Of a DNA stretch of 64,000 nucleotides, positions 14,545 through 64,000 are shown piece after piece. Each line of letters begins with the position of its first letter. Position 1 is the first letter of the stretch. The position numbers were made by a program, and so were the translations under genes. The stretch comes from the human T2T-CHM13v2.0 reference genome, Homo sapiens. Under the pieces are notes generated by a model. That model saw only the letters and a program-made list of their open reading frames with translations, was not told the origin of the DNA and did no database searches. The stretch is taken from assembly GCF_009914755.1 (NCBI RefSeq), contig NC_060926.1; one strand, given 5' to 3'.

Positions 14545-16478
14545 TGTCTTAGTCCATTTTGTGTTGCTATAACAGGATGCCTAGGATTGATAATTTATAA
14601 AGAAAATAAATTGATTTGACCCGTGATTCTGATAGCTGGAAGGTTCAAAATTGGAAAGTTGAATATGATGATGACCCCATGATGCTTCAATTTATGGTGG
14701 AGAGTAGAAAAAGGGCAAAGAGTGTGCAAAGATATCCTCATGGCTTTGCTGGTCACAGCTGATGTGGCTTCTCTCATGGTTTGGAGTCAAATGCCTGTAA
14801 CTTTCTCAGGTGGGAATTACATATTCCTGGTGGCTCTGTAATGTTGGGGTCTTGACAGTGGCCCCAATCTCACAGCTCCCCCAGGCACTGAGGTGAGCTC
14901 CCTGTGTCAGCTCTAACCTCACATTTTTAACTCAGCATTGCCCTACTTCTTCACTAGTTCCACCCCATTGGCATATCTGTGCCTCGGTCCACAGACTATT
15001 TCATACCTTCTTTGAAATGCTGGTGGAAGAAACCATGCTTCCATAGCATTGCATTCTGAAGGCCTGCAAATTAGTTCCATGTGTATGTGAATGCCACCAA
15101 GGCTTATGGCTTGCATTCTTTTTGGTGGCAGCATGTGCCTTAACCTGGGCCCCCTTGAGCAATGCTTCTTGCTCCAACAGAGGAGCTGGGATGTGGAAAG
15201 CAGTGTCCCACAGTGGCACTGGAAAGTGGCAACACGGTCCTGTCCTTGATACTATTCTGTCATTCTAGGTCTCTGGGCCTGAGATGGGAGGGGAAACCTC
15301 AGTAATCTTTTAAATGCCTTTTTCTAATTGTTTTGACTATTAGCACCTGGCTCTGTTTTATCGTGCTAATCTCTTTAGTAAGTGGTTGCTTGGCCATACC
15401 CTTGAATTTCTCTCATAAAAATACACTTTCATTCTCTACCACATGGCCAGGCTGTGAATTTTCCAAATTCTTACTCTCTGCTTCCCTTTTAGTTGCAAAT
15501 TCTCTCTTTAGATCATTCTTTTCTCTTATTATTACTCTTTTTTTTTCTGTAGCTCAGCACAGCTATTAAAAATAACCATGCAGCTTCTTGAATACTTTGC
15601 TGCTCAGAAATTTCTTCTACCAGTTATACTAGTTCATTTTTCTTATTTTCCACCTTCACAAAGCCCTGGGACATGGACACAATGTAGCCAAGTCCTTTGC
15701 TATAGTGTAACAAGGGTGACCTGTCTCTACTTCCCAATAGGTACCTCTGAATTTCCATCTGAGATTTTGTCAGAATTGCCTTCACTGTTCATATTTCCAT
15801 TAATATTTTGGTTACAGCCACTTAACCGATCTCTGAGAAGTTCCAAACTTTCCCTCATCCTTTTGTCTTCTGATCCTTCGTCAGAAGTGCCCTTAATGCT
15901 CTTTTCATTGCAATACAGGCAATACAGGCTATTCTATTATGCTCCTCAGCAGACTAGAATACAATCACTACAAATTACGCATTTCCAAAGCTGCCTTCAT
16001 ATTTCCAGTTGTCGTATAACAACATCCTAATCTTCAATACCAACTTTCCATCTTTATTTAGCATTGCTATAACAGAATACCTGAGGCTGGATAATTTATA
16101 AAGAGGTTGATTTTGCTTACAATTCCAGTGGCTGGAAAGTTCAAGATTGAGCATCTGCATCTGGTGAGGGCCTCATGCTACTTAAACTCATGGCAGAAAG
16201 TTAAAGCAGAGCTGGAATGTGTAAAGAGATCACGTGGTGATAGAGTAAGAAATAGAAATTGAGAAAGCCAGACACTGTAACAAGTCACTCTCTTAGGAAC
16301 AAATCTATTCCTAAGAAAGAACTTACTAACTCCTTTGGTGGGGTATTAATGTATTTGTGAGGGATTCGACCCCATGATCCAAACACTTTCCACTAGGCCT
16401 CGCCTCCCAACACTGCAACGTTGGGATCAAATTTCAGCGCGAGTTTTGGTGGGGATAAACCACATCTAAACCATAGCA
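14545..16478 (-). mobile_element. MST-family MaLR element: partial LTR, internal region, full LTR
   Basis: LTR ends TGTCTTAGTCCATTTTGTGTTGCTATAACAG at 14545 and ...AAACCATAGCA at 16478. The right LTR spans about 16049-16478; the left LTR breaks off near 14740 into MaLR internal sequence. Confidence 0.8.
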
Positions 16479-26900: not shown

Positions 26901-28090
26901 AGGTTGTTAAAGAGACAGTCCCTTGGGTGGGAGCTATAGAAGATGTGGCACTTGGTACATGGCTAAACTTCTTCCAGGAAGAATGAGTATGGCTGGATTT
27001 ATCACTGGAGTAAGACAGAGGGAAGGTTCATGAAGGGTCAAGCTCTGGCCCCAGCTGTTGAAGGACTATTGTTTGCCCTGTTAGCTTTCCAATAAAAGTT
27101 TGTTAGAAGCCAGGCCATCACAGCCACTGGCAGTGTGTGTCATAAGCCCCTTTGAGGAAAAATGGAAGTATCGTATTCCTCACCTTTTATGTGCTGCTTT
27201 GAGGGGGTGTATCCCATGGAAGTGTTTATACACTTGTGTAATACCAACTCTTTGTTCTGTGATCTAAGGAGGCTTACATATGCCTAGTCCCTTCTGCTCC
27301 CAGAGCTAAGGATCAAGTTCTTCAGTAGGTATCAGTAAAAGTAGTAGCACTTGATGCATGGCATAAACCTCTTCTGTGGGGAAACAGAGAGGTGTGGTTT
27401 TAATGCCTCTTCTCTGCATGGCTTCAGGGGAATTAAGGCACTGGAAGTGCTTACACACCCATATAAAACTTCCTTTTTTGTGGTTTATATAGACATGCAA
27501 TACTTAGTCTCCTCTATTCCTAAAGCTAGGAGGTTTAGTATGTCGTTCTTCAGGTAGAAGCTGTAAACGTTAGGGTACTTGATGTTATGTAAACACTTCT
27601 TTCAATAGGGATTTATGGAGCTGGACTTATTGCTGGGATGAGTCAGTGGAGATGTCTCAGGAAGTGCCAATCTGCTTCTCAGGCTACCAGATGGCTTACA
27701 CTTGTCTATTCTTTTAACCTGCCAAGTTAGAAGCTCCCCAAGTTTGAAGCCAGACTACCAAGTAGCTGCCAGAGCAGTGTGTCATAAACTCCTTTCTGTA
27801 AGAAACAGGGGCTGTGTTTTCTAAGCTCCTTCTATGCACTACTCCTTGGGGCTTGGGGATGAAGCCCTTGAAAGTGCTTGTTCACTCTTATAAAACCTCT
27901 GCTTTTTTCCTGTGGTCTCTAGAGGCATTTATATGTGAGTTTCTTCCAGTCTCAGAGCTAGGAGGCTTAGGATGCAGTCCCTTGGGTGGAAACAGTAAAA
28001 GTTGGGGCAAGCAATATGGACAAACTCCTTTCAGGAGGAATTATGAAACCTAGAATTATCACTGTGTTGAGCTTGGGAAAAAAGCTTGAT
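20912..28090 (-). mobile_element. Near-full-length decayed L1MA-type LINE-1 (about 7.2 kb)
   Basis: T-rich tail and L1MA 3' UTR from 20912; ORF2 C-terminal remnant (ORF 21459-21716, MWRKGNASTLLV); continuous ORF2- then ORF1-like sequence to about 26450; repetitive 5' UTR to about 28090. No intact ORF. Confidence 0.85.
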
Positions 28091-29060
28091 ATAGCTATGG
28101 CAAGTAAAAGTGAAAAGGGAAAAAATGAGTTTGCTGTCTATTATTGAGCAATTTTTTTGGCTAAAAGAATATTGAACCGTATTTTATGAAAATGAAGTTT
28201 AAGTCACAGTTGTAAAATTTACTCTCTATGTTTCAGCAAATTCTTTACTTCTTCACACTTCTTTTCCAATTAAATAAGAAGGCTGGCCTATTGGGAATTT
28301 TCATTATTAGTCTTTTATATTTTTAAAAACATGTTGTATCCCAAATGTAGAATTACCTGCTCGAATTAAATTTTATTCAGATGACTTATATGTGAACAAA
28401 ACTGCAAGTATTTGTGTGAAGTGGGTGTGGTGGGCTTGAAACTTGTCCAATAGGAATTTATTTTTGCCTCTTGAATGGCCTTGAAGTGACTAGAAAAACA
28501 CAGCTGAGAATATAACATAAAGTTAGTACCTAAATTGTGCAAAGTCTTACTCCAGTATTTTGTAAACGACGACAGAACATTTAAGTATTTGTTTTCTATC
28601 ATGAGATACAAAAGATGATGGTCTTATGTGCAGTGTGGTTCAATGGGCATAACAAGGTTTACTTTAGTTTTATAATCTCCATCCCAATTTAATATTAGAA
28701 TGCAAGAAGTAAAATTTTCTTAGTATGATAACTTCGATCCACTTGAATTTGGAAAATGTTATTTCATTCATGACCTTATGTACTTAATAATTATTAGTAA
28801 TGTATCACTTGAGACATGCCTCAAAATAATTGCAACACACTTGCATTGAGATGCCATTGCTTTAGATGATGCTAATAGCTTGATGTTTTGGGTGAAAGAG
28901 TAAGCAGATATAAGTGACACTTTCTGCAAATAATAAAATTCTTGAACAAGTCCTGCAAATGCAAAAGAGAGTGTCATCTGAAGTGTGAAGTAGGTTAAGT
29001 GCATCAAACAAATACTTTAAGACATCTCTAGAAACAATGACCACATAAATACAAACAATG

Positions 29061-29433
29061 GTGTTAGTCAAGATTTTGCTGTGGTAACAAACAATCCCAA
29101 AATATTAGTGGTTTAAGGCAACAAAGATTAATTTCTTGCTTACACAAATTATACTGTAATTTCCAGCATGAATTTCCAGTTTCACCTAATTTTCCAGGTC
29201 TTTATGTGAAGAATTAGCATTGCACCTCCATAATAAAAATTTTCTTTGTGCATTAAGACAGGGAAAGAGAGTACTTATAACTGCTAATGACACATTTCAT
29301 TTCTTAAATTTAACGTATCAAATCAAGTCATTCAAATAAGATAAACATCAACAAGCTGAGACATTGCAATATCTCTTTGTTCCTTGAAGAAGGACAATTG
29401 TAAATATTGGTGAGAAACACTTTCACCTACTAC
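29061..29433 (-). mobile_element. Ancient MLT1-family (MaLR) solo LTR
   Basis: TTAGTCAAGATTTTGCTGTGGTAACAAACAATCCCAAAATATTAGTGGTTTAAGGCAACAAAG matches the MLT1 reverse terminus; ends CTACTACA. Confidence 0.55.
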
Positions 29434-31441
29434 AGTTATAAACCTGTAAAAGTTTGAACAGTCCAAATCTCCCATGGGCTGCAGCCTAATTTGTCTGGAA
29501 AAAATTCATATTTGACTCATCTAATCCAGGGTATGTTATTATTATTATTTTCTTAATCACCTTCCATTTGGATTTGAAGTACTTTAGGAGACCTTTGGAT
29601 GTACCATAACTGCTAACGTCTAGCTATTAATGGCTCTTTGTCTTCTCACCAGCCTTAACTATTGTAAGAAAACTAACATTTTGTGGAATTATGAGAATAG
29701 CCATCAACTACCATACAGTTGTCTTTTTTTGTCTGTAAAAGAAGAGAAACAGGAAAAAGAAGAACCCCTTGTCTGTCTATTTACATAGCTGGGGCATCTA
29801 TTGTCTCTCCATATTGTGCTCTATTCTTCTATTAACATGGTTTCCCTTTCCTTCATCCACCCATCTCTAACATCATATATTGTGACATATGATGTTGGGT
29901 AGCAGATACTTATTTAAGATTTAGGTGTCATGAAGGGTGGGGGAACTCTGGAACAGGACATAATAAAGAAAACCTTCATTTTAATACTAAATCTCTCTCT
30001 TTTCTAACATATTTTCTCCCCTGGCTCAGTCTGTCTCCATATTATTTGGTTCCCTCTATCTTCTTTCCCCCAGGTGCTAGTCAATTAATTTCATATTCTT
30101 GTTAACCTATTAAGTAGAACTATTGTCTCTTGAAACTCTTTGAGGTACAATACTAAATAAGAAAATAATGTATTCTAGTTCAGAATACTTACCCATATAA
30201 AGAACCAGTTAGCCAAGACATATAAATAAGAGTTGTATTTTTATTTAACACATTTTGGATTATGGACAGAGCAACCTCCAGGAATCATGGATGTCCAATG
30301 GGGTTTCTCTTGTTACATTTGTGATATATGCTGTATAAAATGTATTTTACAAGATCTCACAATTGTCTTAGGATTTTCATCTAATACTGGCCACAAACCC
30401 TTGTTCCTTTTTTACTGGGTACATTTCAAAGGCCTAGAAGTTGCATGTGAATCAAGAAAACTCCATGGGGTTCAGACAAACTTTGACCTCCAAGTGGCAA
30501 GGAACAGAATTGAAAATTTCACGAAAACACCTTTATTCTCAGGGTCAGCTCAGCAGGGACCAAGCAGTACAGAACAGGTGAGAATGAAAGCTAATCAAGA
30601 AAGGAAACTCTTTCAAACAACAACATCAGTCACCAAAGCCATGATTCACAATCAGGATACTAGTTGAGTCGGTTCTTATTTTAACCAAAGAGTCCCTTCT
30701 GGTTCTCCTTGATGCTCATATCCACTTCAGAGGAATGTTACACTATAGGCTGCTGTCTTACGTCTCATAAATAAATCAGTAAGATAAAAATAGCTGTTTC
30801 TCTCAAAGTTAAACCAAAATGAAAGTCAAGGTTTCAGCAATCTTTCTCTACTCTTTCCTTTTCTGTTTTCTTATAATAATATCTAGTTGACTCTGAAAGC
30901 ACAGATTATTCAAGTATAAGTGCAGACTGATTTTGGGAGAAAAACATAGTGTTCACTATTGTGTAAAATTTGTGATTAGCCAGTGTTTTATTAGAAATGT
31001 AATTCCTTTTATCCCTTTATTAAAAAACCCACTTATCTATAAAAATATCTTAGGATATACTCGTATTATACCTCTCTTGCTAGAAGACAAACAGTACTTC
31101 TGTTACAAGAAGTCCTAAGTTACCTGGGGCTATGAGAATAAACTGAAGATGGTTTCTCTACCTGTATCTATGCATATAATAATCCCTAAAGTTTAAGGGA
31201 GTGTTTTGTAATGGAAAGTTGTACATAGATGTTCTTAGTACAAAGGATTCTGGAAAGTTCCATCTTTCACCTCTGCACATAATTTTTACATGTTTTTCTT
31301 AATTGTAGGAATTCAGCTTGCACTTACAGGCAGCTTATTGTTCCAATGGTTGCCAATGCTTCCTTGATGCTTCTTTCTTTGTTCTTCAGAAAGACACGGA
31401 AGAGCTTTAGATATCATGTACGGTGTTTGCTTTTTTAAGAC

Positions 31442-31803
31442 TGTATTAGTCTCTTTTCATGCTGCTAATAAAGACATACCCAAGACTGGGTAATTATAAA
31501 GGAAAGAGATTTAATTGACTCACAGTTCCACATAGCTGGGGAGGCCCTACAATCATGGTGGAAGACAAGGAGGAGCAAGTTACATCTTACATGGTAGCAG
31601 GTGAAAGAGAGCTTGTCCAGGGAAATTCCCATTTATAAAACCATCAGATCTCATGAGACTTATTCACTACAGTGAGAACAGTATGAGGGAAACAGCCCCC
31701 ATGATTCACTTATCTCCTGCTGGGTCCCTCCCACAATAGATGGGAATGATGGGAACTACAATTCAAGATGAGACTTGGGTGGGGACACAGTCAAACCATA
31801 TCA
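31442..31803 (-). mobile_element. THE1B/C LTR (3' LTR of the element)
   Basis: TGTATTAGTC...CATGCTGCTAATAAAGACATACCC...GGGGACACAGTCAAACCATATCA; the adjacent minus-strand polypurine tract reads GGGAGGGGCCAGGGTGGAA. Confidence 0.9.
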
Positions 31804-33315
31804 TTCCACCCTGGCCCCTCCCAAATCTAATGTCCTCACATTTCAAAACCAATCATGCCTTCCCAACAGACCCCCAAAGTCTTAACTCATTTCAGCATTG
31901 ACTCAAAAGTCCACAGTCCAAAGTTTCATCTGAGACAAGCAATTTCCTTGTGCCTATGAGCCTGTAAAATCAAAAGAAAGTTAGTTACTTCCTAGATGCA
32001 ATGGGAGTACAGTCATTGGTTAAAGACACCTATTCCAAAGAATAAATTGGCCAAAATGAAGGGGCAACAGGCCCCATGTAAGTCTGAAATCCAGCAGGGG
32101 AGTCAAATCTTAAAGTCCAAAATGATCTCCTTTGACTCCATGTCTTACATCCTGGTCATGCTGATGCAAGAGGTGGCTTGCCATGGTCTTGGGAAGCTCT
32201 ACCCCTGTGGCTTTGCAGAATACAGCCCCCTCTCCTGGCTGCTTTCATGGGCTGGCATTGAATGCCTGTGGCTTTTCCAGGTGCACAGCACAAGCTGTCA
32301 GTGGTTCTACCATTCTGGGGTTCTGCAGATGGCTCTCTTCTCACAGCTCCATTAGGCAGTGCCCCAGTGGGGACTCTGTGTCCCACCCCACATTTCCCTC
32401 CCACATTGCCCTAGTAGACGTTCTTCATGAGGGCTCTGCCTCTGCAGCACACCTCTGCCTGAACATCCAGGCATTTCCATGCATCCTCTGAAATTTAGGT
32501 GGAGGTTTCCAAACCTAAATTCTTGACTTCTGTGTACCCACAGGCCCAGCACCACATGTAAGCTGTCAAGGGCTTGCACCCTTTTAAGCAATGGCCTGAG
32601 CCATACATTGGCCCTTTTAGCCATGGCTGGAGCAGCTGGGATGCAGGACACAAAGTCCCGAGGCTACACGCAGCACTGAAGGCCTGGACCCAGCCCAGGA
32701 AACCATTTTTCCCTCTTAGGCCTCTGAGTCTGTGATGGGAGGGGCTGTCACAAAGGTCTCTGATATGTGCTGGAGACATTTTCCCCATTGTCTTGGCAAT
32801 TAGCATTTGGCTCCTTGTTACTTATCCAAACTTCTGTAGCAGGTTTGAATTTCTCGCCAGAAAACGGATTTTGCCTTTCTGCTGAATCATCAGCCTGCAA
32901 ATTTTTCAAACTTTTTTGCTCTGCTTTCTTTTGAACACTTTGCTGCTTAGAAATTTTTTTTAAGTAGATGCCCTATATCATCTCTCTCAAGTTCAAGGTT
33001 CCACAGATCTCTAGGGCAGGAGCAAAATGCCTCCAGTCTCTTTACATAGCAAGTGTGACCTTTACTCCAGTTCCCAACAATTTCCTCATTTCCATCTGAG
33101 ACCACCACAGCCTGGATTTTATTGTCCTTATTCCTGTCAGCATTTTGGTCAAAGCCATTCAACAAGTCTCTTAGAAGTTCCAAACTTTCCCACATTTTCC
33201 TATCTTCTTCTGAGCCCTCAAAACTCTTCCAACCAGTACCTATTACCCAGTTCCAAAGTCACTTCCACATTTTCGGGTATCTTTACTGCAGTGCCCCACT
33301 CTTGGTAACAATATC
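31804..33315 (-). mobile_element. THE1 internal region
   Basis: About 1.5 kb of MaLR internal sequence; ORF 32947-33195 (MWESLELLRDLLNGFDQNAD) is the typical THE1 ORF remnant; PBS-like region at 33297-33315. Confidence 0.9.
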
Positions 33316-33859
33316 TATATTAGGGTTCTCTAGAGGGATAGGACTAATAGAACTGATGTATATATGAAAGGGAGTTTATTAAGGAGTATTACTCATACGA
33401 TCACAAAGTGAAGTCCCACAATAGGCTATATGCAAGCTGAGGAGAAGGAAGACAGTCTGAGTCCCAAAACCTCAAATGTAGAAAGCCAACAGTGTAGTTT
33501 TCAGTCTGTGACCAAAGGCCTGAAAACCCATGGCAAACCACTGGTGTAAACCCCAAGAATCAAAACGCTAAAGATCTTGAAGTTTGATGTTCTAGGGCAG
33601 AAAGCATCCAGCACAGGAGAAAGATGGGGGCCAGAAGACTTAGCCAGTCTAGTCCTTCCGTGTTCCACTGACTGCTGTTATCCTAGCTGTGCTGGCAGCT
33701 GATTAAATGGTGCCCACCCAGATTGACAGTGGCTCTACCTCTTGCAGTCTATTGACTCAAATGTTAATCTCCTTTGGTAATACCCTCACAGGCACATCCT
33801 GGAACAATGCTTTGCATCCTTCAGTTTAATCAAGTTGACACTCAGTATTAACCATCATA
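33316..33859 (-). mobile_element. MLT2A (ERV-L/HERV-L) LTR in the 5' LTR position of the THE1 element
   Basis: TATATTAGGGTTCTCTAGAGGGATAGGACTAATAG...GGGAGTTTATTAAGGAGTATT...CAAGTTGACACTCAGTATTAACCATCATA follows the MLT2A1/A2 consensus and is unrelated to 31442-31803 except at the terminus. Confidence 0.88.
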
Positions 33860-34104
33860 GAGACTTAGAGTTTTGATATATGGAACATTTATTTAATATG
33901 GAGAGATTAATGGGATTATTCTGGATTCAACTAAGATGTGCTATTCCATGTTCATTAAACATCATAATAACATTCCAGAAACTAAAATCTGAATGTTTTT
34001 TATCGTTATATTTACTTACTTAGTAATTTTAAACTTTGGTTAGAGTATATATTTCTGTTTTAGAGCTATAAATGCCACTGGAGAATTTGCTTTAAAATGC
34101 CATT

Positions 34105-36900
34105 ATAACTTTCAGCTTTGTATTAGGATATAGAAAACTGGAAAGATTATCATTTAGACCCTTACAACAACAAAAATCTGGGTTCTCTATAAGATTGCAA
34201 CTTTCTTGAACACATCAGAGAGCAGAATTCACAGGGAAACCAACTAACCCAACGTATAAGCAAGACACTCTTTCAAAGAGGAAAAAGGATATGAACACTA
34301 GCTTTCCTAAAGAAGATCAAAGCTATCAAATAAACTTTTAAGAATGTTTAGTAAATATAATTAATTTTTGAACACTGATTATGTGCTATTATGAAAGTAT
34401 AGAAACCCTGGATACTGCAGACACAAGATAAATCACTCCAACTCATAGGCTCTTCTCCACACACATCATTAGGTACTTATAAGAAATACCGGGGGCAAGA
34501 CAAGAGATCAGAAGGAACATTTCTTATGGTGAATGCCTGAAAAAGGGGAATAGCAACTGCTTTGGGGATGGCATGAAACCTTGTTGGGTACTTCTTCTCT
34601 GCTTCCCCATGGGAGAAAAGTCTTAAGCAGTTTGAGTAAGTGCAGTAAGCCCTGTCCCACAGAGAATACAAATAAATACCTATCAAAACTGAGGAATAAA
34701 AACAGAAAAACTTCTTGGAGAAGGGATAGAAAAATGTCCTAGGACCAGATCAATAAAGATTTTCTACCACTAGGGGCTAAGGCACGATCACTGAGAAAGA
34801 TCAACCATTGAGAATGAGAAACACATCAGCTGCCTAAGACTAAGGCTGAACCAGAACAACAGAGAAGGTCTCCTCCTTCTGCCCTCAGAGCTATCAACTA
34901 TGAAAGAACAAGTAAGAGCAATCCAGTATATTTACTGGAAAAGAGCAAGAACATGAAGAGATACTCTCTTTGTGATGTAGGCACAAAGGGAAGCCTTAAA
35001 TTAAGAATTGATTGGATGTTAAAAAATTTCTCTAGCACCAACCTTAAATAGAAGGTAATGCTATAAGTACTTGAAGAGTGGTAATGTACTGAGTAAAATG
35101 ATAATAACAAAAAAAATTCAACTCAGCTCAACCCTTAACTAGATTTACTCAATCCTCCACACAAAAGCTAGAAAATAAAGGGGGAAGCCCATTTTGAAGA
35201 ATGAATAAGCTATAGCTCAGTCTGTATTGCCTAACAAAAGGTATATTTTTAACTAAAGATTATGAAACATGCAAGTGAATAGAACAAATAAAAATACAGT
35301 TAAGAGACAAAGTTGTTGGTAGAATTAGACCATGGCACTGATATTTGAATAATCATATAGGAAATATAAATAATATATTAAAAATTCTAGTGGAAAACTG
35401 TATAATATGAATGAACAGATGGTAGATTTCAGCAGAGATATAGAAAATATAATAAAATTAAATAAAAATGGTAGAAATGAAAACAGAGTAGCAGAGATAA
35501 ATAATACCTTCAATAAGCTCATCAATAGATTTGACAGCTGGGAAAATAATTAGTGAGTCTCATTCTAGGTCAATGGTTATCATCAAAATTACATCACCAA
35601 GAAAAAAATATTTTAAAAATTAAGAATCCAAGATATAGGAAGCGGTTTTTTGTGTGTGTGTTCTAATATCGGTAACTGGAATTTCAGAAGGAAAAGAGAG
35701 ACAAAGTGAAAGATCTTGGGAAAGATAAGGGCAGATACTTTTCTAAAAGTAGTGAAAGACACCAAACAGTATATCCAACATCTCAAAATTTCATACAAGA
35801 TTAAACAAGATAGCCACTCCCTACCCGAAACACAAACACACACACACACAATATATCCTAGTAAACTCTTGAAAACTAAAGACAAAATAAAATCCTGAAA
35901 GTAGTCTGATTAAAAGTCATATTACATATAAAGAAACAAATACAAGAATTATTCCAGTTTCTGCTGGGGCAGTGGCTCACACCTGTAATCCCAGCACTTT
36001 GGGAAGCTGCGGTGGGCAGATAACTTGAGGCAGGAGTTTGAGAGCAGCCTGGGCAACGTGACAAAACCCCGTCTCTACTAAAAATACAAAAATTAGCCAG
36101 GCATGGTGGTGCACACCTGTAATCCCAGCTACTTGGGAAGCTGAGGCACAAGAATTGCTTGAACCTGGGAGCTGAGATCATGCCACTGCACTCTCGTCTG
36201 GGTGACAGAGCAGCAAGACTCTGTCTAACAACACAAAAAAAGAATGATACCAGGATTTTTGTTAGAAATTATTTTGCAAGTCAGAATACAATACAGTAAT
36301 GTCTTTAAAGTGCAAAAATGGGAATAAACTGCTCAACAATATTCTCTATGTAGCAAAAATACCCTTCACATATAACGGAGATATAATAACCTTCAGAGAA
36401 ACAATAGAGAAAATTTGTTGCCATTTTTTCTGTTCTCTACTGAAATGTTAAAAGTAAGTTCTCCAGGTGGAGTGAAAATGACATCAAAGAAAAACTTTCA
36501 TCTACACAAAGAAATAAAGCAGTGTTCTAAGTGTTATAATTGAAGGTAAATACAACATTATTTACTAAACGTTTTAATTGCTCTAAAAGATGGTTGTCTA
36601 AAGTAAAAGAGGTATCAATGGATATTATATTCATAACCTACATAAAAGATAAAATATATTACAATAATTGTGTCAAGAAAGATAACAAAAATGGGCATCA
36701 ACTGTTTAGTAAGGTGCTTATTATACACACAAAATTTTATAATATTATTTGAAGGTGAACCATGATTATCTGAAGATTTATATTGTAAACCCTGTGGTAA
36801 TCTACAAAGACATTTAAAAAATAGATATAAATAATAAACCAATATTGGAAATAAAATAGAATTATAAAAACAATCCACAACTTCTATTTTCAGAACATAT
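34105..36900 (+). mobile_element. Old L1M (L1MD/ME-like) 5' UTR and ORF1 region
   Basis: A-rich strand with ORF1-like coiled-coil and C-terminal remnants at about 35300-36520; interrupted by an Alu. Confidence 0.6.
35963..36240 (+). mobile_element. Alu (AluS/J boundary type) with a short right-arm deletion
   Basis: Dimeric Alu; GGCGGAGGTTGCAGTGA is missing after GAACCTGGGA; degenerate TSD AAGAATTATTCCAG/AAGAATGATACCAG. Confidence 0.92.
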
Positions 36901-36909
36901 AGAAAATAC

Positions 36910-37085
36910 ATCTATATATGTGTGTGTATATATTTGGTTCTTGTTTAACAGTAGAAATAATATATATAATTATATATCTATTGTTAATTATATATTTATT
37001 ATATATATTATATATTTGTTTATATAATTTATATATTTATTAATTATATAACTATATATTTATATTATATTATTTCTATTGTTAA
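36910..37085. repeat. AT-rich (TA)n-derived low-complexity tract
   Basis: Degenerate TATATT/TATAAT runs. Confidence 0.8.
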
Positions 37086-40000
37086 ATACAACTAAAAACT
37101 ATGGACATTATGCATAAAACAAATATAAGAAGACTCCGAATAGTGGAGAGAAGAAGGAAGACCTACCTAGGGACCTTGGAATTCAAGAAATTTCATGGTG
37201 GTGAGTTTTGTGATATTTATTTTTTTGCCTCAAATACATTTGAATTAGAGGTGAAGAAGATAGCAATCTGGAAGCAACAATAGTCACAAACAAAAAGAAC
37301 AAAAAAAGCCAATAACAGCCTGAAGTCTCTAGCTAAAAGCCCAGAAAAGTGGTAGCCAGGCAAGATGGAAAATCGTTAAACAGTATCTTCTCTACTCCAG
37401 CCAAGCACTACAGAAAAGTCTATGGCCCCATCTGCATCTGTAACAACAAAAGTCAGATGGAAAGCCTAGGCTTCCACCCTTATGAGACTATAATATAGTA
37501 TTCCAAAACAGTACTGAGTTAGTGTTGGAGAAGTTGGAAGCCAGGACCTTCCTTCCTGCTGCGCACTAACAAACACGTGCTCGTAGGTCAGTACCATGGG
37601 AAATGCCTAGGTTTTATCCACACTAAGCAGTAACAAGGGTCACACTCCTCCCAAATGGAATGGTGTCAAAGGAGGCCTAGAGAAAAGTCAGAACTTTCAT
37701 TGTCACATAGCAGTAATGAGGCCAATTGAACCCAATCACAGTGCCAGTGGAGACCTCATGGAAAGGCAGAATTCCCACCCTCCTCACTCGAAAATAATGA
37801 TGAAACCTCCTCTTCTCAGGTGTCAACAAGGTCACCTGAGACACCCGTGGAGAACCTGGTCTTCTCCATTCATCTGTCAGCAATAAGGTGGCGACCCCCT
37901 TCCATTGCCAGTGTGGTATCAGAAAAACTCAGCTAAAACAGAAAACATAAATACAACTCTAAATTTTTTAAAATAATAGAAAAAAGACCAATATTCAATT
38001 GAAACTCATTTATCATGCCAAGAATCAGCAAGTTTTCAAACTGAATGAAATGGGTAATCAATACAAAACTAAGGTGACAGAAATGTGGAATTACATAATA
38101 AAAATATTAAAGCAGCCATGATAAAAATGCTTCAATAAGCAATTACAAACATGCTTGGAGCAAATAGAAAAAATAGAGAGTATCAGCAAAGAAATGTAAA
38201 AACTCACCAAAATTAGAAAATACAAATAAGAACCAAATGGAAATTTTAAAACTAAAAAAAATATTATAACCTAAATGAAAAGCTCAGGAGGTGGACCCAG
38301 TAGCAGAATGGAGAGGGAGAGAAGAGAATCAGTGAATTGGAAAATAGAATAATAAAATTAACAATTCCGTATAAAGGAAAAAATAGCCAGGGAAAAAAAT
38401 GGATACAGCTTTAGAGACCCATGGGAATATAACAAAAATTCTAGCAAAATTTTATAATTGAAATAATGGAAGAAGGGGAGAAAAGGTTTGGGACTGAAAA
38501 AGTATTCAAAGAAATATGACTGAAAATTTTCTAAATTTGACAAGAGATACAAAATCTACATATTTAAAGACAGTGAGTGAATCCCAAATAGGATAAACAC
38601 AAAGAAATCTACACCAAGACACAACGTAGTCAAAGTTCTGAAATCTGGAGATAAATACAAACTTTTGAAAGCAGTAAGAGAAAAATGACACTTCGCTTAT
38701 AAAGAAAAAACATTTACATGATACCAGATTTCTCTTCAGAAGCCATGGAAGGCAGAAGAAAATTGCACAGTATTTTTCAAGTCCTGAAAGAAAAGAACTG
38801 TCAACACAGACTCCTAAATCTGCAGAAAATACACTTCAGGAATGAAGAGAAAATAAACAAAAAAATTTTAAATGAAGAAAGATTAAAATTTGTTACTAGC
38901 AGACTTACTCTAAAAGAATGGCTGAAGGAAATTCTCCAAACAGACAGGAGGCAATTAAAAAAACAAAAAAAACAAAAAAAAAAAACAACTTTGGGATAGT
39001 AAGGAAGGAGAAAATACACAGTAAGAAAAAAAAATGACACAGAAAGTACACTTTTCTTTGAGTTTTCTAAATTGTGTTAGATGTTTGCAGCCAAAATTAT
39101 AACACTGTCTAATGTGCCTCTAAATATATGTAGAAAATATTTAAGATAATTACATTATAAATGGAAGAGTAAAGAGATGTGAGGAAGGTAGAATTCCTAT
39201 ACTTCACTCAATCTGGTAGGATGATAATAACTGTAGACTGTGACATGTATATTTATATGTCATATATATTTCTATATATAAATATGTCATATATATACAA
39301 TATATATAATTAGATCGAGATCAACCATTATAAAAGCTATAAAAGAGGTACATTGAAAACACTATAAGTAAATCTAAATGGAATTCAAAAAAGTGTTCAA
39401 GTAACTTACAGAAGGCTTAAAAAACAAAAGAGTGAAACAAAAAATAGAGCAAACAGAAGACAAACATACATTAAACATAATCCCTGTACTGAATAACAGG
39501 TCTGTTTCAAGTGGGAACAGAAAATGTATCAAGACAGACAATATCCTGGGGTACAAAACAAACTCAAACAATTTAGACAAAAAATTAAATAATATAGAGT
39601 GTGTTTCTAGCCACAGTGAGATCAAACTAGCAGTTAAAAATAACAGAAAAACATGCAAGTAGTTGGGAACTGGAGTAAAAAAAAATGCCCCTTCCAAGTA
39701 ATCATGGATCCAAAAGGAAGTTGAAATTGATAACCTAAAATACTATGGAGTTGAATGAAAATGAAAATGTACATATGTCACAACTTTGGTCACATAGTTA
39801 AAGCAGTACTGAGAAAAAAATTATAGTGTTAAATATGTATATACATTAGAAAAGAGAAAAAAATGAAGTAGAAAATCTAAGCTCTTACACAAGAACTTAG
39901 AAAAATAATTTTTAAAAATCCAAGCAACAGAAAGGAAATTGTAAAAATCAAAATAGAAATCAATGAAATTGAAAACATAAAATAGAGAAACTCAGTGAAA

Positions 40001-63112: not shown

Positions 63113-64000
63113 GAGCTTTACTGAAGTAAAATTGATGTGCTAAATTATACATGTTTAAAGAATAAAATCTGATATGTTTTGGCATATGTATGCACCAATT
63201 AAACAATCACTGCAATAAAGATAATGTATGTATCTAATATGATTAGACTTTGTGCCCCACCCAAATCTCATCTTGAATTGTAATAATCCCCACATGTCAA
63301 GGGAGAGACCAGGTGGAGGTAATTGAATCATGAGGATGATTTCCCACATGCAGTTCCCCTGATAGTGAAAGAGTTCTCACGAGATCTAATGGTTTTATAA
63401 GCGGCTCTTCCCTCTTTGCTCACCACTTTTCCTTCCTGCCACCTTGTGAAGAAGACGTCTTGCTTGCCCTTCGTCTTCCACCATGGTTATAAGTTTTCTG
63501 AGGCCTCCCCAACCATACTGAACTGTGAGTCAATTAAACCTCTTTCCTTTATAAATTACCCAGTCTCGGGCGGTTCTTTATAGCAATAAGAAAAGGGACT
63601 ATACAGTATTCATCACTCCAAAGTTTCCTGATTCTTCATTCTCATTTCCTATTCTTCCTGGAATCCTTTCCTTCTTCAATTGCTGGCAATTACTAACCCA
63701 GTTTCTCTCATTGTGGATCACCTATCATTGTTCAGAATTTTATATGAAGGATTCATACACCATAAACTTTTTTTCTGACTTTTATTTTCACTCAGCATAC
63801 TTATTCTGAAACTCACCTACATCGTTGCATGAATTAATAACTCATTCCTTTGTATTACTAAGTAATATTCTATTGTGTGATTATACCACAATTTGTTCAT
63901 TCAACTCTTGAAGGACTTTTGGATTGTTTCTTGTATTTGGCTACTGCAAATAAAGCTTCTGTAAACATTCATATTAAAGACTTTGTATGAAGATATGCTT
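63113..64000 (-). mobile_element. Old L1M (L1MB/MC/ME-like) 3' UTR, split by a THE1D LTR
   Basis: AGCTTTACTGAAGTAAAATTGA... and TTTCACTCAGCATA...ATTCCTTTGTATTACTAAGTAATATTCTATTGTGTGATTATACCACAATTTG. Confidence 0.75.
63235..63605 (+). mobile_element. THE1D solo LTR
   Basis: CCCCACCCAAATCTCATCTTGAATTGTAATAATCCCCACATGTCAAGGGAGAGACCAGGTGGAGG...GTGAGTCAATTAAACCTCTTTCCTTTATAAATTACCCAG; TSD GTATC/GTATT. Confidence 0.88.

What the first reader, a model, noticed from the sequence alone, without database searches (positions are those of the whole stretch)
31437..33864. Chimeric provirus: ERV-L (MLT2A) 5' LTR joined to THE1 internal region and THE1 3' LTR, inside one TSD
Seen: read on the minus strand, the element is MLT2A LTR (33859-33316), PBS, THE1 internal, PPT, THE1 LTR (31803-31442). 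The MLT2A LTR sits exactly where the THE1 5' LTR should be, and no THE1 LTR remainder lies beyond it. The junction reads GATATTGTTACCAAGAGTGG|GGCACTGC: the start resembles the recalled HERV-L PBS region (GATTTTGGTACCAGGAGTGG) and the continuation is THE1 internal. The outer flanks AAGAC (31437-31441) and GAGAC (33860-33864) match 4/5 (about 1.6% by chance at equal base frequencies). Established: both LTRs of a provirus are normally identical at integration; MaLRs are non-autonomous, are thought to use ERV-L machinery, and make 5-bp TSDs. Inference: an ERV-L plus-strand strong-stop DNA transferred onto the PBS of a co-packaged THE1 minus strand, and the hybrid integrated as one unit. That would be a direct fossil of MaLR/ERV-L co-packaging, with an MLT2A promoter placed over THE1 sequence.
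Basis: partly seen in the sequence, partly recalled or inferred. Interest (0 to 1): 0.82.

Follow-up and report, generated by a model that had tools for sequence, protein, structure and literature searches.

The report
HERV-L/THE1 hybrid provirus, one of many
This old retroviral insertion carries the front repeat of one family (HERV-L type) on the body and rear repeat of another (THE1 type), and about twenty more insertions built the same way show that the two families were copied side by side.

Summary
On the minus strand, a 544-bp HERV-L-type LTR (33859-33316) runs through a tRNA-Leu-type primer binding site (PBS) into a 1512-bp THE1/MST-type internal region, followed by a 362-bp THE1-type LTR (31803-31442). 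The flanks are gtctc/gtctt (4/5).

It is not a one-off. Junction searches of the same genome found 21 independent loci with this 5' junction, counting this one. Of 17 loci extended, 11 show the full three-part build. Of 12 elements with both ends readable, 6 have perfect 5-bp target-site duplications (TSDs), 4 have 4/5, and 2 do not match.

- The switch always lies inside the PBS, and 17 of 18 junctions carry the HERV-L-type spacer.
- Two reciprocal products exist (THE1/MST 5' LTR on a HERV-L leader), one with an HERV-L-type 3' LTR and a 4/5 TSD.
- No credible case has the foreign LTR at the 3' end (0 of 8 pattern hits, against 5,358 canonical junctions).
- The hybrids' internal regions carry no hybrid-specific signature.

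The mechanism is inferred. Family names are recalled, no primate orthologues were available, and six literature searches found no prior description.

The parts
33860..33864 (-). 5' copy of the target-site duplication (gtctc on the minus strand)
   Evidence: It matches the 3' copy at 4 of 5 positions.
33316..33859 (-). 5' LTR of HERV-L type (MLT2A-like by recall), 544 bp, complete, long subtype
   Evidence: 39 other genomic copies at 83-85% over 3-538/544; this LTR type flanks a pol-bearing ERV with the GATTT spacer and a tRNA-Leu-type PBS.
33311..33315 (-). Spacer GATAT between LTR and PBS, of HERV-L type and unlike the GTAAAT of canonical THE1/MST
33293..33310 (-). Primer binding site (TGTTACCAAGAGTGGGGC); the switch from HERV-L-type to THE1-type sequence lies inside it
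   Evidence: HERV-L-type copies continue ..GAGTGG TTC.., while this element continues ..GAGTGG GGCACTGC.. like canonical MaLR internals.
31804..33315 (-). THE1/MST-type internal region, 1512 bp, full length, group A in the tree
   Evidence: 1-1512 aligned to other copies at 77-82%. (tree).
31804..31822 (-). Purine-rich tract (PPT) abutting the 3' LTR
   Evidence: the same PPT-to-LTR junction has 5,358 pattern matches in the genome.
31442..31803 (-). 3' LTR of THE1 type, 362 bp, complete
   Evidence: 1-362 aligned to LTRs of other copies at 70-81%; no similarity to the 5' LTR.
31437..31441 (-). 3' copy of the target-site duplication (gtctt on the minus strand)

Best explanation
The element is a recombinant provirus that formed before integration.

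An HERV-L genome and a THE1/MST (MaLR) genome were reverse-transcribed in the same particle. The HERV-L plus-strand strong-stop DNA (U3-R-U5, spacer and a copy of the tRNA-Leu primer) annealed to the PBS end of the MaLR minus-strand DNA instead of its own. Completing both strands gave HERV-L LTR - PBS - MaLR internal - PPT - MaLR LTR. ERV-L integrase then inserted this as one unit with a 5-bp duplication.

This happened repeatedly. The window's copy is one of at least 21 such insertions, and the reciprocal product also exists.

- Shown: the anatomy, the recurrence, the TSDs, the PBS-confined junction, the donor-type spacer, the 5'-only polarity and the reciprocal class.
- Inferred: that the exchange was a plus-strand transfer, and therefore that the two RNAs were co-packaged.

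Such hybrids are dead ends. One further replication round would rebuild both LTRs alike. Unlike LTRs also cannot collapse to a solo LTR, so hybrids are probably over-represented among surviving full-length copies.
For: Recurrence
- 22 of 39 non-self hits to the 221-nt junction span it. Seven of these are copies of one duplicated locus.
- a second junction query gave 15 spanning hits, of which 4 were new.
- 11 of 17 extended loci have the full three-part build.

Integration as a unit
- of 12 elements with both ends read, 6 have 5/5 TSDs, 4 have 4/5 (this element included) and 2 do not match. Chance of 4/5 or better is 1.6% per element.

Junction
- the HERV-L-type leader and the MaLR internal share only the spacer and PBS, about 20 nt.
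- 17 of 18 hybrid junctions have a GATTT-like spacer. All 6 canonical relatives have GTAAAT or GTAAGT.
- 597 pattern matches for the GATWT spacer with the HERV-L leader, and 4,859 for GTAAAT with the MaLR internal.

Polarity
- 0 credible of 8 hits for MaLR PPT followed by an HERV-L-type LTR start, against 5,358 canonical. Pattern sensitivity is about 76%.

Reciprocal products
- 2 of 4 pattern hits are a THE1/MST 5' LTR on a HERV-L leader. One ends in an HERV-L-type LTR with a gatgt/aatgt TSD.

Independent origins
- the tree is star-like, and hybrids and canonical copies lie on both sides of its only starred split.
- no hybrid-specific diagnostic columns beyond random splits.

Donor identity
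- RT and integrase fragments, then an LTR of the same type, lie downstream of a mismatch-free HERV-L-type junction.
Against: - The mechanism is inferred from anatomy. Nothing here observes strand transfer or packaging.
- From recall, intermolecular plus-strand transfer is rare in studied retroviruses.
- One hybrid (L034) carries the MaLR-type GTAAAT spacer, which simple plus-strand transfer does not predict.
- Only 2 reciprocal products were found. Both have lost most of the internal region, and one is rearranged so that its TSD cannot be read.
- Internal-region group and 5' LTR subtype are perfectly associated: 7 of 7 long, 7 of 7 short. Contemporaneous partners explain this, but two hybrid founder lineages would fit as well.
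- The window's own TSD is only 4/5.
- No orthologous empty site could be examined.
- Only 6 canonical copies were available for the lineage test.
Confidence: 0.72

Rival explanations
1. Recombination before integration, but at the DNA level. Two finished linear DNAs (HERV-L and MaLR) in one cell underwent a single homologous crossover at the PBS, and the product was integrated. This needs no co-packaging.
For: It gives the same two products and the same polarity as strand transfer. The PBS with the LTR tip is the only shared stretch, so any crossover would be confined there. L034, with its junction upstream of the spacer, fits a crossover in the shared ..CTAATACAG tip.
Against: The shared stretch is only about 15-20 nt. 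From general knowledge, that is far below what cellular homologous recombination normally uses, whereas reverse transcriptase is built to use exactly this 18-nt complementarity. 17 of 18 junctions keep the donor spacer.
Confidence: 0.1
2. One or two hybrid founders arose once and then multiplied as hybrid lineages that kept unlike LTRs.
For: There is a perfect association between internal-region group (A/B) and 5' LTR subtype (long/short), 7/7 and 7/7.
Against: Established reverse transcription makes both LTRs of a progeny copy alike (U3 from the 3' LTR, R-U5 from the 5' LTR), so a hybrid cannot breed true. No hybrid-only clade appears in the tree. Diagnostic columns number 1 in group B against a mean of 0.8 in random splits, and 6 in group A against a mean of 17. 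The window's 5' LTR is closer to 39 copies at places not among the hybrid loci found (83-85%) than to any hybrid's LTR (68-81%).
Confidence: 0.06
3. Rearrangement after integration. A THE1 and a HERV-L that were nested or adjacent lost the DNA between their PBS sites, and the 4/5 flank match of this copy is chance.
For: The window's TSD has one mismatch, and 4/5 arises by chance at 1.6% per fixed pair of 5-mers.
Against: No THE1 LTR remnant and no HERV-L internal remnant lies in the flanks. Ten of 12 elements of the same build have 5/5 or 4/5 TSDs at unrelated sites. A deletion would not leave matching flanks outside unlike LTRs.
Confidence: 0.04

Closest known systems
Canonical THE1/MST MaLR provirus (LTR - about 1.5 kb internal - LTR)
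   Same: The internal region, PPT, 3' LTR and 5-bp TSD are those of ordinary copies.
   Different: The 5' LTR and the LTR-PBS spacer belong to another family. Canonical copies have their own LTR plus GTAAAT (4,859 pattern matches).
HERV-L provirus with MLT2A-type LTRs (name recalled; the pairing HERVL/MLT2A1, MLT2A2 is listed in Kojima 2018, PMC5753468, passages read)
   Same: The 5' LTR, the GATTT-like spacer and the 5' part of the tRNA-Leu-type PBS.
   Different: Everything downstream of the PBS is MaLR. There is no HERV-L leader, no pol and no HERV-L 3' LTR.
Mosaic or recombinant HERVs ascribed to co-packaging and template switching (Vargiu 2016, PMC4724089, and Kojima 2018, PMC5753468; passages read)
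   Same: It is a recombinant of two ERV families formed before integration.
   Different: Those mosaics are described as internal patchworks or secondary integrations. Here the exchange is one clean swap at the PBS that leaves two unrelated LTRs inside one TSD. Neither paper mentions HERV-L/MaLR hybrids in the passages found.
LTR swapping between autonomous and non-autonomous plant LTR retrotransposons, and plus-strand strong-stop transfer in yeast Ty
   Same: Exchange of LTRs between a helper and its parasite during reverse transcription, as far as the titles and my recall go.
   Different: Different hosts and families. The sources are Du et al. 2010 and Lauermann & Boeke 1997. I saw only their titles in the reference list of PMC6894440 and could not read either paper, so details cannot be compared.

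Membership tests
Retrovirus-type provirus integrated as one unit | Short direct duplication of the target (5 bp for ERV-L/MaLR) outside both LTRs | tested here: met
   gtctc/gtctt, 4 of 5. Ten of 12 elements of the same build have 5/5 or 4/5.
Retrovirus-type provirus integrated as one unit | PBS directly after the 5' LTR and a purine tract directly before the 3' LTR | tested here: met
Retrovirus-type provirus integrated as one unit | LTR termini TG...CA | tested here: inconclusive
   The 3' LTR has TG...CA. The 5' LTR reads TA...TA here, while relatives read TG...CA. This is taken as later mutation.
Retrovirus-type provirus integrated as one unit | The two LTRs are copies of one another | tested here: not met
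   No significant similarity between them. This is the anomaly.
HERV-L LTR (MLT2A type), for the 5' LTR | Full-length similarity to an abundant LTR family that flanks a pol-bearing ERV with a tRNA-Leu-type PBS | tested here: met
   (39 copies at 83-85%). (LTR end + GATTT + PBS + leader; 597 pattern matches). (RVT_1 at E 1.1e-4 and rve at E 8.2e-7, both just under the Pfam cut-offs). (an LTR of the same type follows).
HERV-L LTR (MLT2A type), for the 5' LTR | Best match to the MLT2A1/MLT2A2 consensus in Dfam/Repbase | not testable with these tools
The name is recalled.
THE1/MST MaLR, for the internal region and 3' LTR | About 1.5-kb internal region without pol, joined by its own PPT to a roughly 360-bp LTR starting TGATATGG | tested here: met
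   5,358 pattern matches for the same PPT-LTR junction.
THE1/MST MaLR, for the internal region and 3' LTR | Own LTR and GTAAAT spacer upstream of the PBS | tested here: not met
THE1/MST MaLR, for the internal region and 3' LTR | Subfamily assignment (THE1A-D versus MSTA-D) | not testable with these tools
   No consensus library was available.
[quoted passage not shown] | Junction confined to the PBS, with the spacer coming from the LTR donor | tested here: met
   17 of 18 junctions. L034 is the exception.
[quoted passage not shown] | The foreign LTR is only ever at the 5' end | tested here: met
   Of the 8 opposite-polarity hits, one was checked against fetched sequence, two were judged from the matched string, and five were dismissed as chance without fetching sequence.
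[quoted passage not shown] | The reciprocal product exists | tested here: met
   2 loci, one with a 4/5 TSD.
[quoted passage not shown] | The two genomes were in one particle | not testable with these tools
   This would need experiment.

The most novel reading that the evidence does not exclude
HERV-L and THE1/MST RNAs were routinely packaged together, and both were reverse-transcribed in the same capsid. The hybrids and their reciprocals would then be a quantitative fossil record of that partnership, at roughly 0.3-0.4% of surviving 5' junctions on each side. The strict pairing of HERV-L LTR subtype with MaLR internal subgroup (7/7 and 7/7) would give a time-resolved map of which helper subfamily mobilised which MaLR subfamily. 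That would be the first direct, sequence-level proof that ERV-L was the MaLR helper.
Probability: 0.45. Interest if true: 0.75.

Novelty: new member of a known kind. Interest (0 to 1): 0.62.

Why it matters
From general knowledge, MaLRs make up about 4% of the human genome and encode no polymerase. Their mobilisation by ERV-L has been argued only from similar LTR tips, the PBS and TSD length. TSD-flanked hybrids with the swap exactly at the PBS, their reciprocals, and the strict 5' polarity are hard to obtain unless both DNAs were made in one reverse-transcription complex. They therefore turn that assumption into something countable.

They also matter for annotation. Pipelines that pair internal regions only with their own LTR names (as described in PMC1794541, methods passages read) will split such elements. 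And they place an HERV-L-type promoter, a type reported as active in early embryos, in front of MaLR sequence at about 20 loci. That could be checked in expression data.

Tried and rejected
- **Counting hybrids by a spacer + PBS + MaLR-internal pattern (226 matches).** Rejected as a count. I fetched 10 of these loci. Eight have an LTR end unlike either LTR here (MLT1-like by recall) with the same GATTT spacer, one has a THE1/MST-type LTR, and one is unclear. The GATTT spacer is therefore shared by older MaLRs and is diagnostic only against THE1/MST relatives.
- **L024 as a HERV-L provirus.** It is a solo LTR with TSD gatat.
- **False reciprocal hits.**
  - L061 is a MaLR with an inverted internal piece.
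  - C2:104023025 reads as MaLR from the matched string.
- **Reciprocal at C2:179.5 Mb.** The HERV-L-type LTR is followed by another PBS, so it is rearranged and its TSD is unreadable.
- **Three of the 4 hybrids new.** They could not be scored for TSDs from the small pieces fetched.
- **Literature.**
  - Six searches turned up nothing on HERV-L/MaLR hybrids.
  - Passages read in PMC10735291, PMC4724089, PMC5753468, PMC1794541 and PMC6894440 mention none either.
  - Smit 1993, Du 2010 and Lauermann & Boeke 1997 are not held, so an earlier description there cannot be excluded.
- **Cross-species orthologues.** No primate genomes are available to the tools.
Full report
**Observation.**
Read on the minus strand, the region is laid out as follows:
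- flank gtctc (33864-33860);
- a 544-bp LTR (33859-33316);
- spacer GATAT (33315-33311);
- a PBS-like TGTTACCAAGAGTGGGGC (33310-33293);
- an internal region that runs to 31804 (1512 bp counted from the spacer) and ends in a purine tract;
- a 362-bp LTR (31803-31442);
- flank gtctt (31441-31437).

The two LTRs share no significant similarity. All three parts are full length against relatives. Outside the element, window 27000-38000 holds no extra THE1-type LTR piece and no HERV-L-type internal piece.

**The structure is recurrent.**
A 221-nt query across the 5' junction was searched against the window's own genome (40 of 5,178 candidates were scored).
- 22 non-self hits span the junction, and 17 cover one side only.
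- Seven of the 22 are copies of one truncated locus spread by segmental duplication (the same break points, near-identical junctions). That leaves 16 independent loci.
- A second junction query taken from another hybrid gave 15 spanning hits: this window, 10 already known, and 4 new.
- The total is therefore at least 21 independent loci, counting the window's.

I extended 17 loci to 7 kb each. Of these, 11 show the full build: HERV-L-type LTR, THE1/MST-type internal region, THE1/MST-type LTR. The other six are truncated or internally deleted.

**Each hybrid integrated as a unit.**
Both ends could be read in 12 elements.
- Perfect 5-bp duplications: 6 (L035 agttc, L040 gtacc, L042 gttac, L043 aggca, L045 aacct, C11:74.9 Mb ccact).
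- 4 of 5: 4 (the window, L033, L034, L044).
- No match: 2.
  - L037 is internally deleted, and its 3' LTR is followed by PBS-like sequence.
  - L041 has a damaged 5' tip.

L036 and L047 have truncated 5' LTRs and were not scored. Three of the four hybrids new could not be scored from the small pieces fetched. Chance gives 4/5 or better in 1.6% of pairs.

**Junction anatomy.**
Copies of the 5' LTR type that are not joined to MaLR sequence continue ..AATACA GATTT TGGTACCAGGAGTGG TTC.. (L048 and L049).
- A pattern for this junction has 597 matches, 100 or more of them without a mismatch in the specified bases.
- 2.3-5.3 kb downstream of one such mismatch-free junction lie RVT_1 and rve fragments (E 1.1e-4 and 8.2e-7, both just under the Pfam cut-offs). 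An LTR of the same type follows them.
- The 5' LTR type is therefore the LTR of a pol-bearing ERV with a tRNA-Leu-type PBS. That is what HERV-L/MLT2A is from recall, and from the pairing table in PMC5753468.

Canonical relatives of the internal region read ..ACTAATACA GTAAAT TGGTACC.. (6 of 6, one with GTAAGT; 4,859 pattern matches).

The HERV-L-type leader and the MaLR internal region are alike only over the spacer and PBS, about 20 nt.

In 17 of 18 hybrid junctions the spacer is GATTT-like, and the sequence turns MaLR-like inside the PBS. L034 is the exception, with GTAAAT.

Within internal-region group B, canonical copies carry a 2-nt insertion in the PBS. Five of the 7 group-B hybrids have it and 2 have the uninserted form. 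A PBS heteroduplex of tRNA-copied plus strand and element-copied minus strand would give such a mix. This last point is inference.

**Polarity and reciprocals.**

| Junction pattern (up to 3 mismatches) | Matches |
|---|---|
| MaLR PPT followed by a THE1-type LTR start | 5,358 |
| MaLR PPT followed by an HERV-L-type LTR start | 8 |

None of the 8 hits is credible.
- Two are antisense THE1 LTR starts, judged from the matched string.
- One was fetched and has no MaLR similarity (L074).
- Five have all three mismatches in the PPT motif. That is about the number expected by chance next to the thousands of such LTR starts (one search lists 4,789 first-look candidates). This expectation is my own estimate, and I did not fetch these five.

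From the copies in hand, the opposite-polarity pattern would catch about 76% of real cases.

The reciprocal pattern, GTAAAT spacer followed by the HERV-L leader, gave 4 hits. Two are real, each a complete THE1/MST-type LTR, a PBS, and 540-590 nt of HERV-L-type leader at 82-86% identity to L048.
- The chr6 copy then runs, through an internal deletion, into an HERV-L-type LTR flanked gatgt/aatgt, 4 of 5.
- The chr2 copy is rearranged.

**Independent origins.**
A tree of the internal region used 14 hybrids and 6 canonical copies. Four hybrids with under 1,000 aligned bases were left out.
- The tree is star-like, with one starred split (95/94). Both of its sides hold hybrids and canonical copies.
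- Hybrids share no diagnostic columns beyond what random splits give: group B has 1 against a mean of 0.8, and group A has 6 against a mean of 17.
- All 7 group-A hybrids, the window's included, have the long 5' LTR. All 7 group-B hybrids have a form lacking positions 297-389.

I read the LTR-subtype pairing as contemporaneous helper and parasite subfamilies. Two founder lineages would also fit it, but established reverse transcription cannot reproduce unlike LTRs.

The window's terminal branch is 0.11 changes per site. By a recalled neutral rate this is roughly 40-50 million years, in line with the timing of MST/THE1 activity in PMC10735291 (abstract and outline read).

**Mechanism.**
A single minus-strand DNA always yields two like LTRs. 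Two unlike, complete LTRs joined at the PBS require a second DNA. The simplest route has four steps:
1. The HERV-L plus-strand strong-stop DNA lands on the PBS end of a MaLR minus strand made in the same particle.
2. Both strands are extended.
3. The reciprocal landing gives the reciprocal product.
4. The ERV-L integrase acts on a HERV-L U3 tip and a MaLR U5 tip, which are alike in relatives (TG..., ...CTAATACA).

This route predicts the PBS-confined junction, the donor spacer, the 5'-only polarity, the reciprocals and the TSDs, and all of these are seen.

A DNA-level crossover between two finished linear DNAs would give the same products without co-packaging. It would have only about 15-20 nt of homology to work with, so I rate it much lower. 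Post-integration deletion and a breeding hybrid lineage are disfavoured by the TSDs and by the tree and column tests.

**Known or new.**
Six full-text searches and the passages read in five papers found no description of HERV-L/MaLR hybrids.
- Vargiu 2016 (PMC4724089) says a thorough MaLR analysis was outside its scope.
- Zuo 2023 (PMC10735291) says recombination among MaLRs was not considered.
- The review PMC6894440 describes the second strand transfer as occurring within one minus strand. Among recombinogenic steps it discusses only the first transfer and template switching.
- Smit 1993 and two papers on plant LTR swapping and Ty plus-strand transfer are not held, so priority cannot be settled here.

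The kind of event, recombination of co-packaged retroelements, is known. This family pair, and the clean two-family LTR outcome in about 20 TSD-flanked copies, appears to be a new member of that kind.

**Limits.**
- Family names are recalled.
- No orthologues were available.
The canonical sample is therefore small and some hybrids were only partly read.
- Counts and one search are lower bounds, because only 40 candidates were scored per search.

Noticed in passing
window 63237-63605 (+) and 15588-15879 (-): A second THE1/MST-type LTR (73% to the 3' LTR over 3-362) and a MaLR-internal-like fragment (69% over internal positions 97-385) lie elsewhere in the window.
   Followed up: no
window 31776-31790 / 32376-32390; genome hits: The MaLR purine tract and a second internal site resemble the reverse complement of the THE1 LTR start (..CCCCACCCAAATC..). 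Two of the 8 hits were antisense THE1 LTR starts for this reason.
   Followed up: partly
L050-L056, L058: MaLR copies with a different LTR end (MLT1-like by recall) use the spacer GATTTT before the PBS, as HERV-L does, whereas THE1/MST copies use GTAAAT. The spacer seems to have changed within the MaLR line.
   Followed up: partly
L009/L038 (chr4:106.24 Mb) and L010, L014, L017, L018, L021, L023 (chr2 89-92 Mb, chr22 17.1 Mb, chr10 38.7 Mb, chrY 11.6 Mb): One truncated hybrid (internal region cut at about position 350) has been copied to pericentromeric regions by segmental duplication. All copies share the same break points.
   Followed up: no
L036 and L037, 3' ends: The THE1/MST-type 3' LTR is followed by gtaaat plus PBS-like sequence instead of a TSD. 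This suggests tandem LTR-internal-LTR-internal arrangements.
   Followed up: no
L049 (chr4:63.32 Mb): An HERV-L-type LTR end and PBS are followed at once by a second copy of the last 56 or so bases of the same LTR type. This is an odd local rearrangement.
   Followed up: no
L060+L063 (chr6:146.05 Mb) and L062+L064 (chr2:179.56 Mb): Both reciprocal hybrids keep only about 540-590 nt of HERV-L-type leader before an HERV-L-type LTR begins at an internal position (18 and 195). Whether such short forms are a recurrent deleted HERV-L derivative was not examined.
   Followed up: partly
L033 (chr7:31.09 Mb): A second, inverted and more diverged MaLR internal region (67%) lies about 1 kb beyond the hybrid's 3' LTR.
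   Followed up: no
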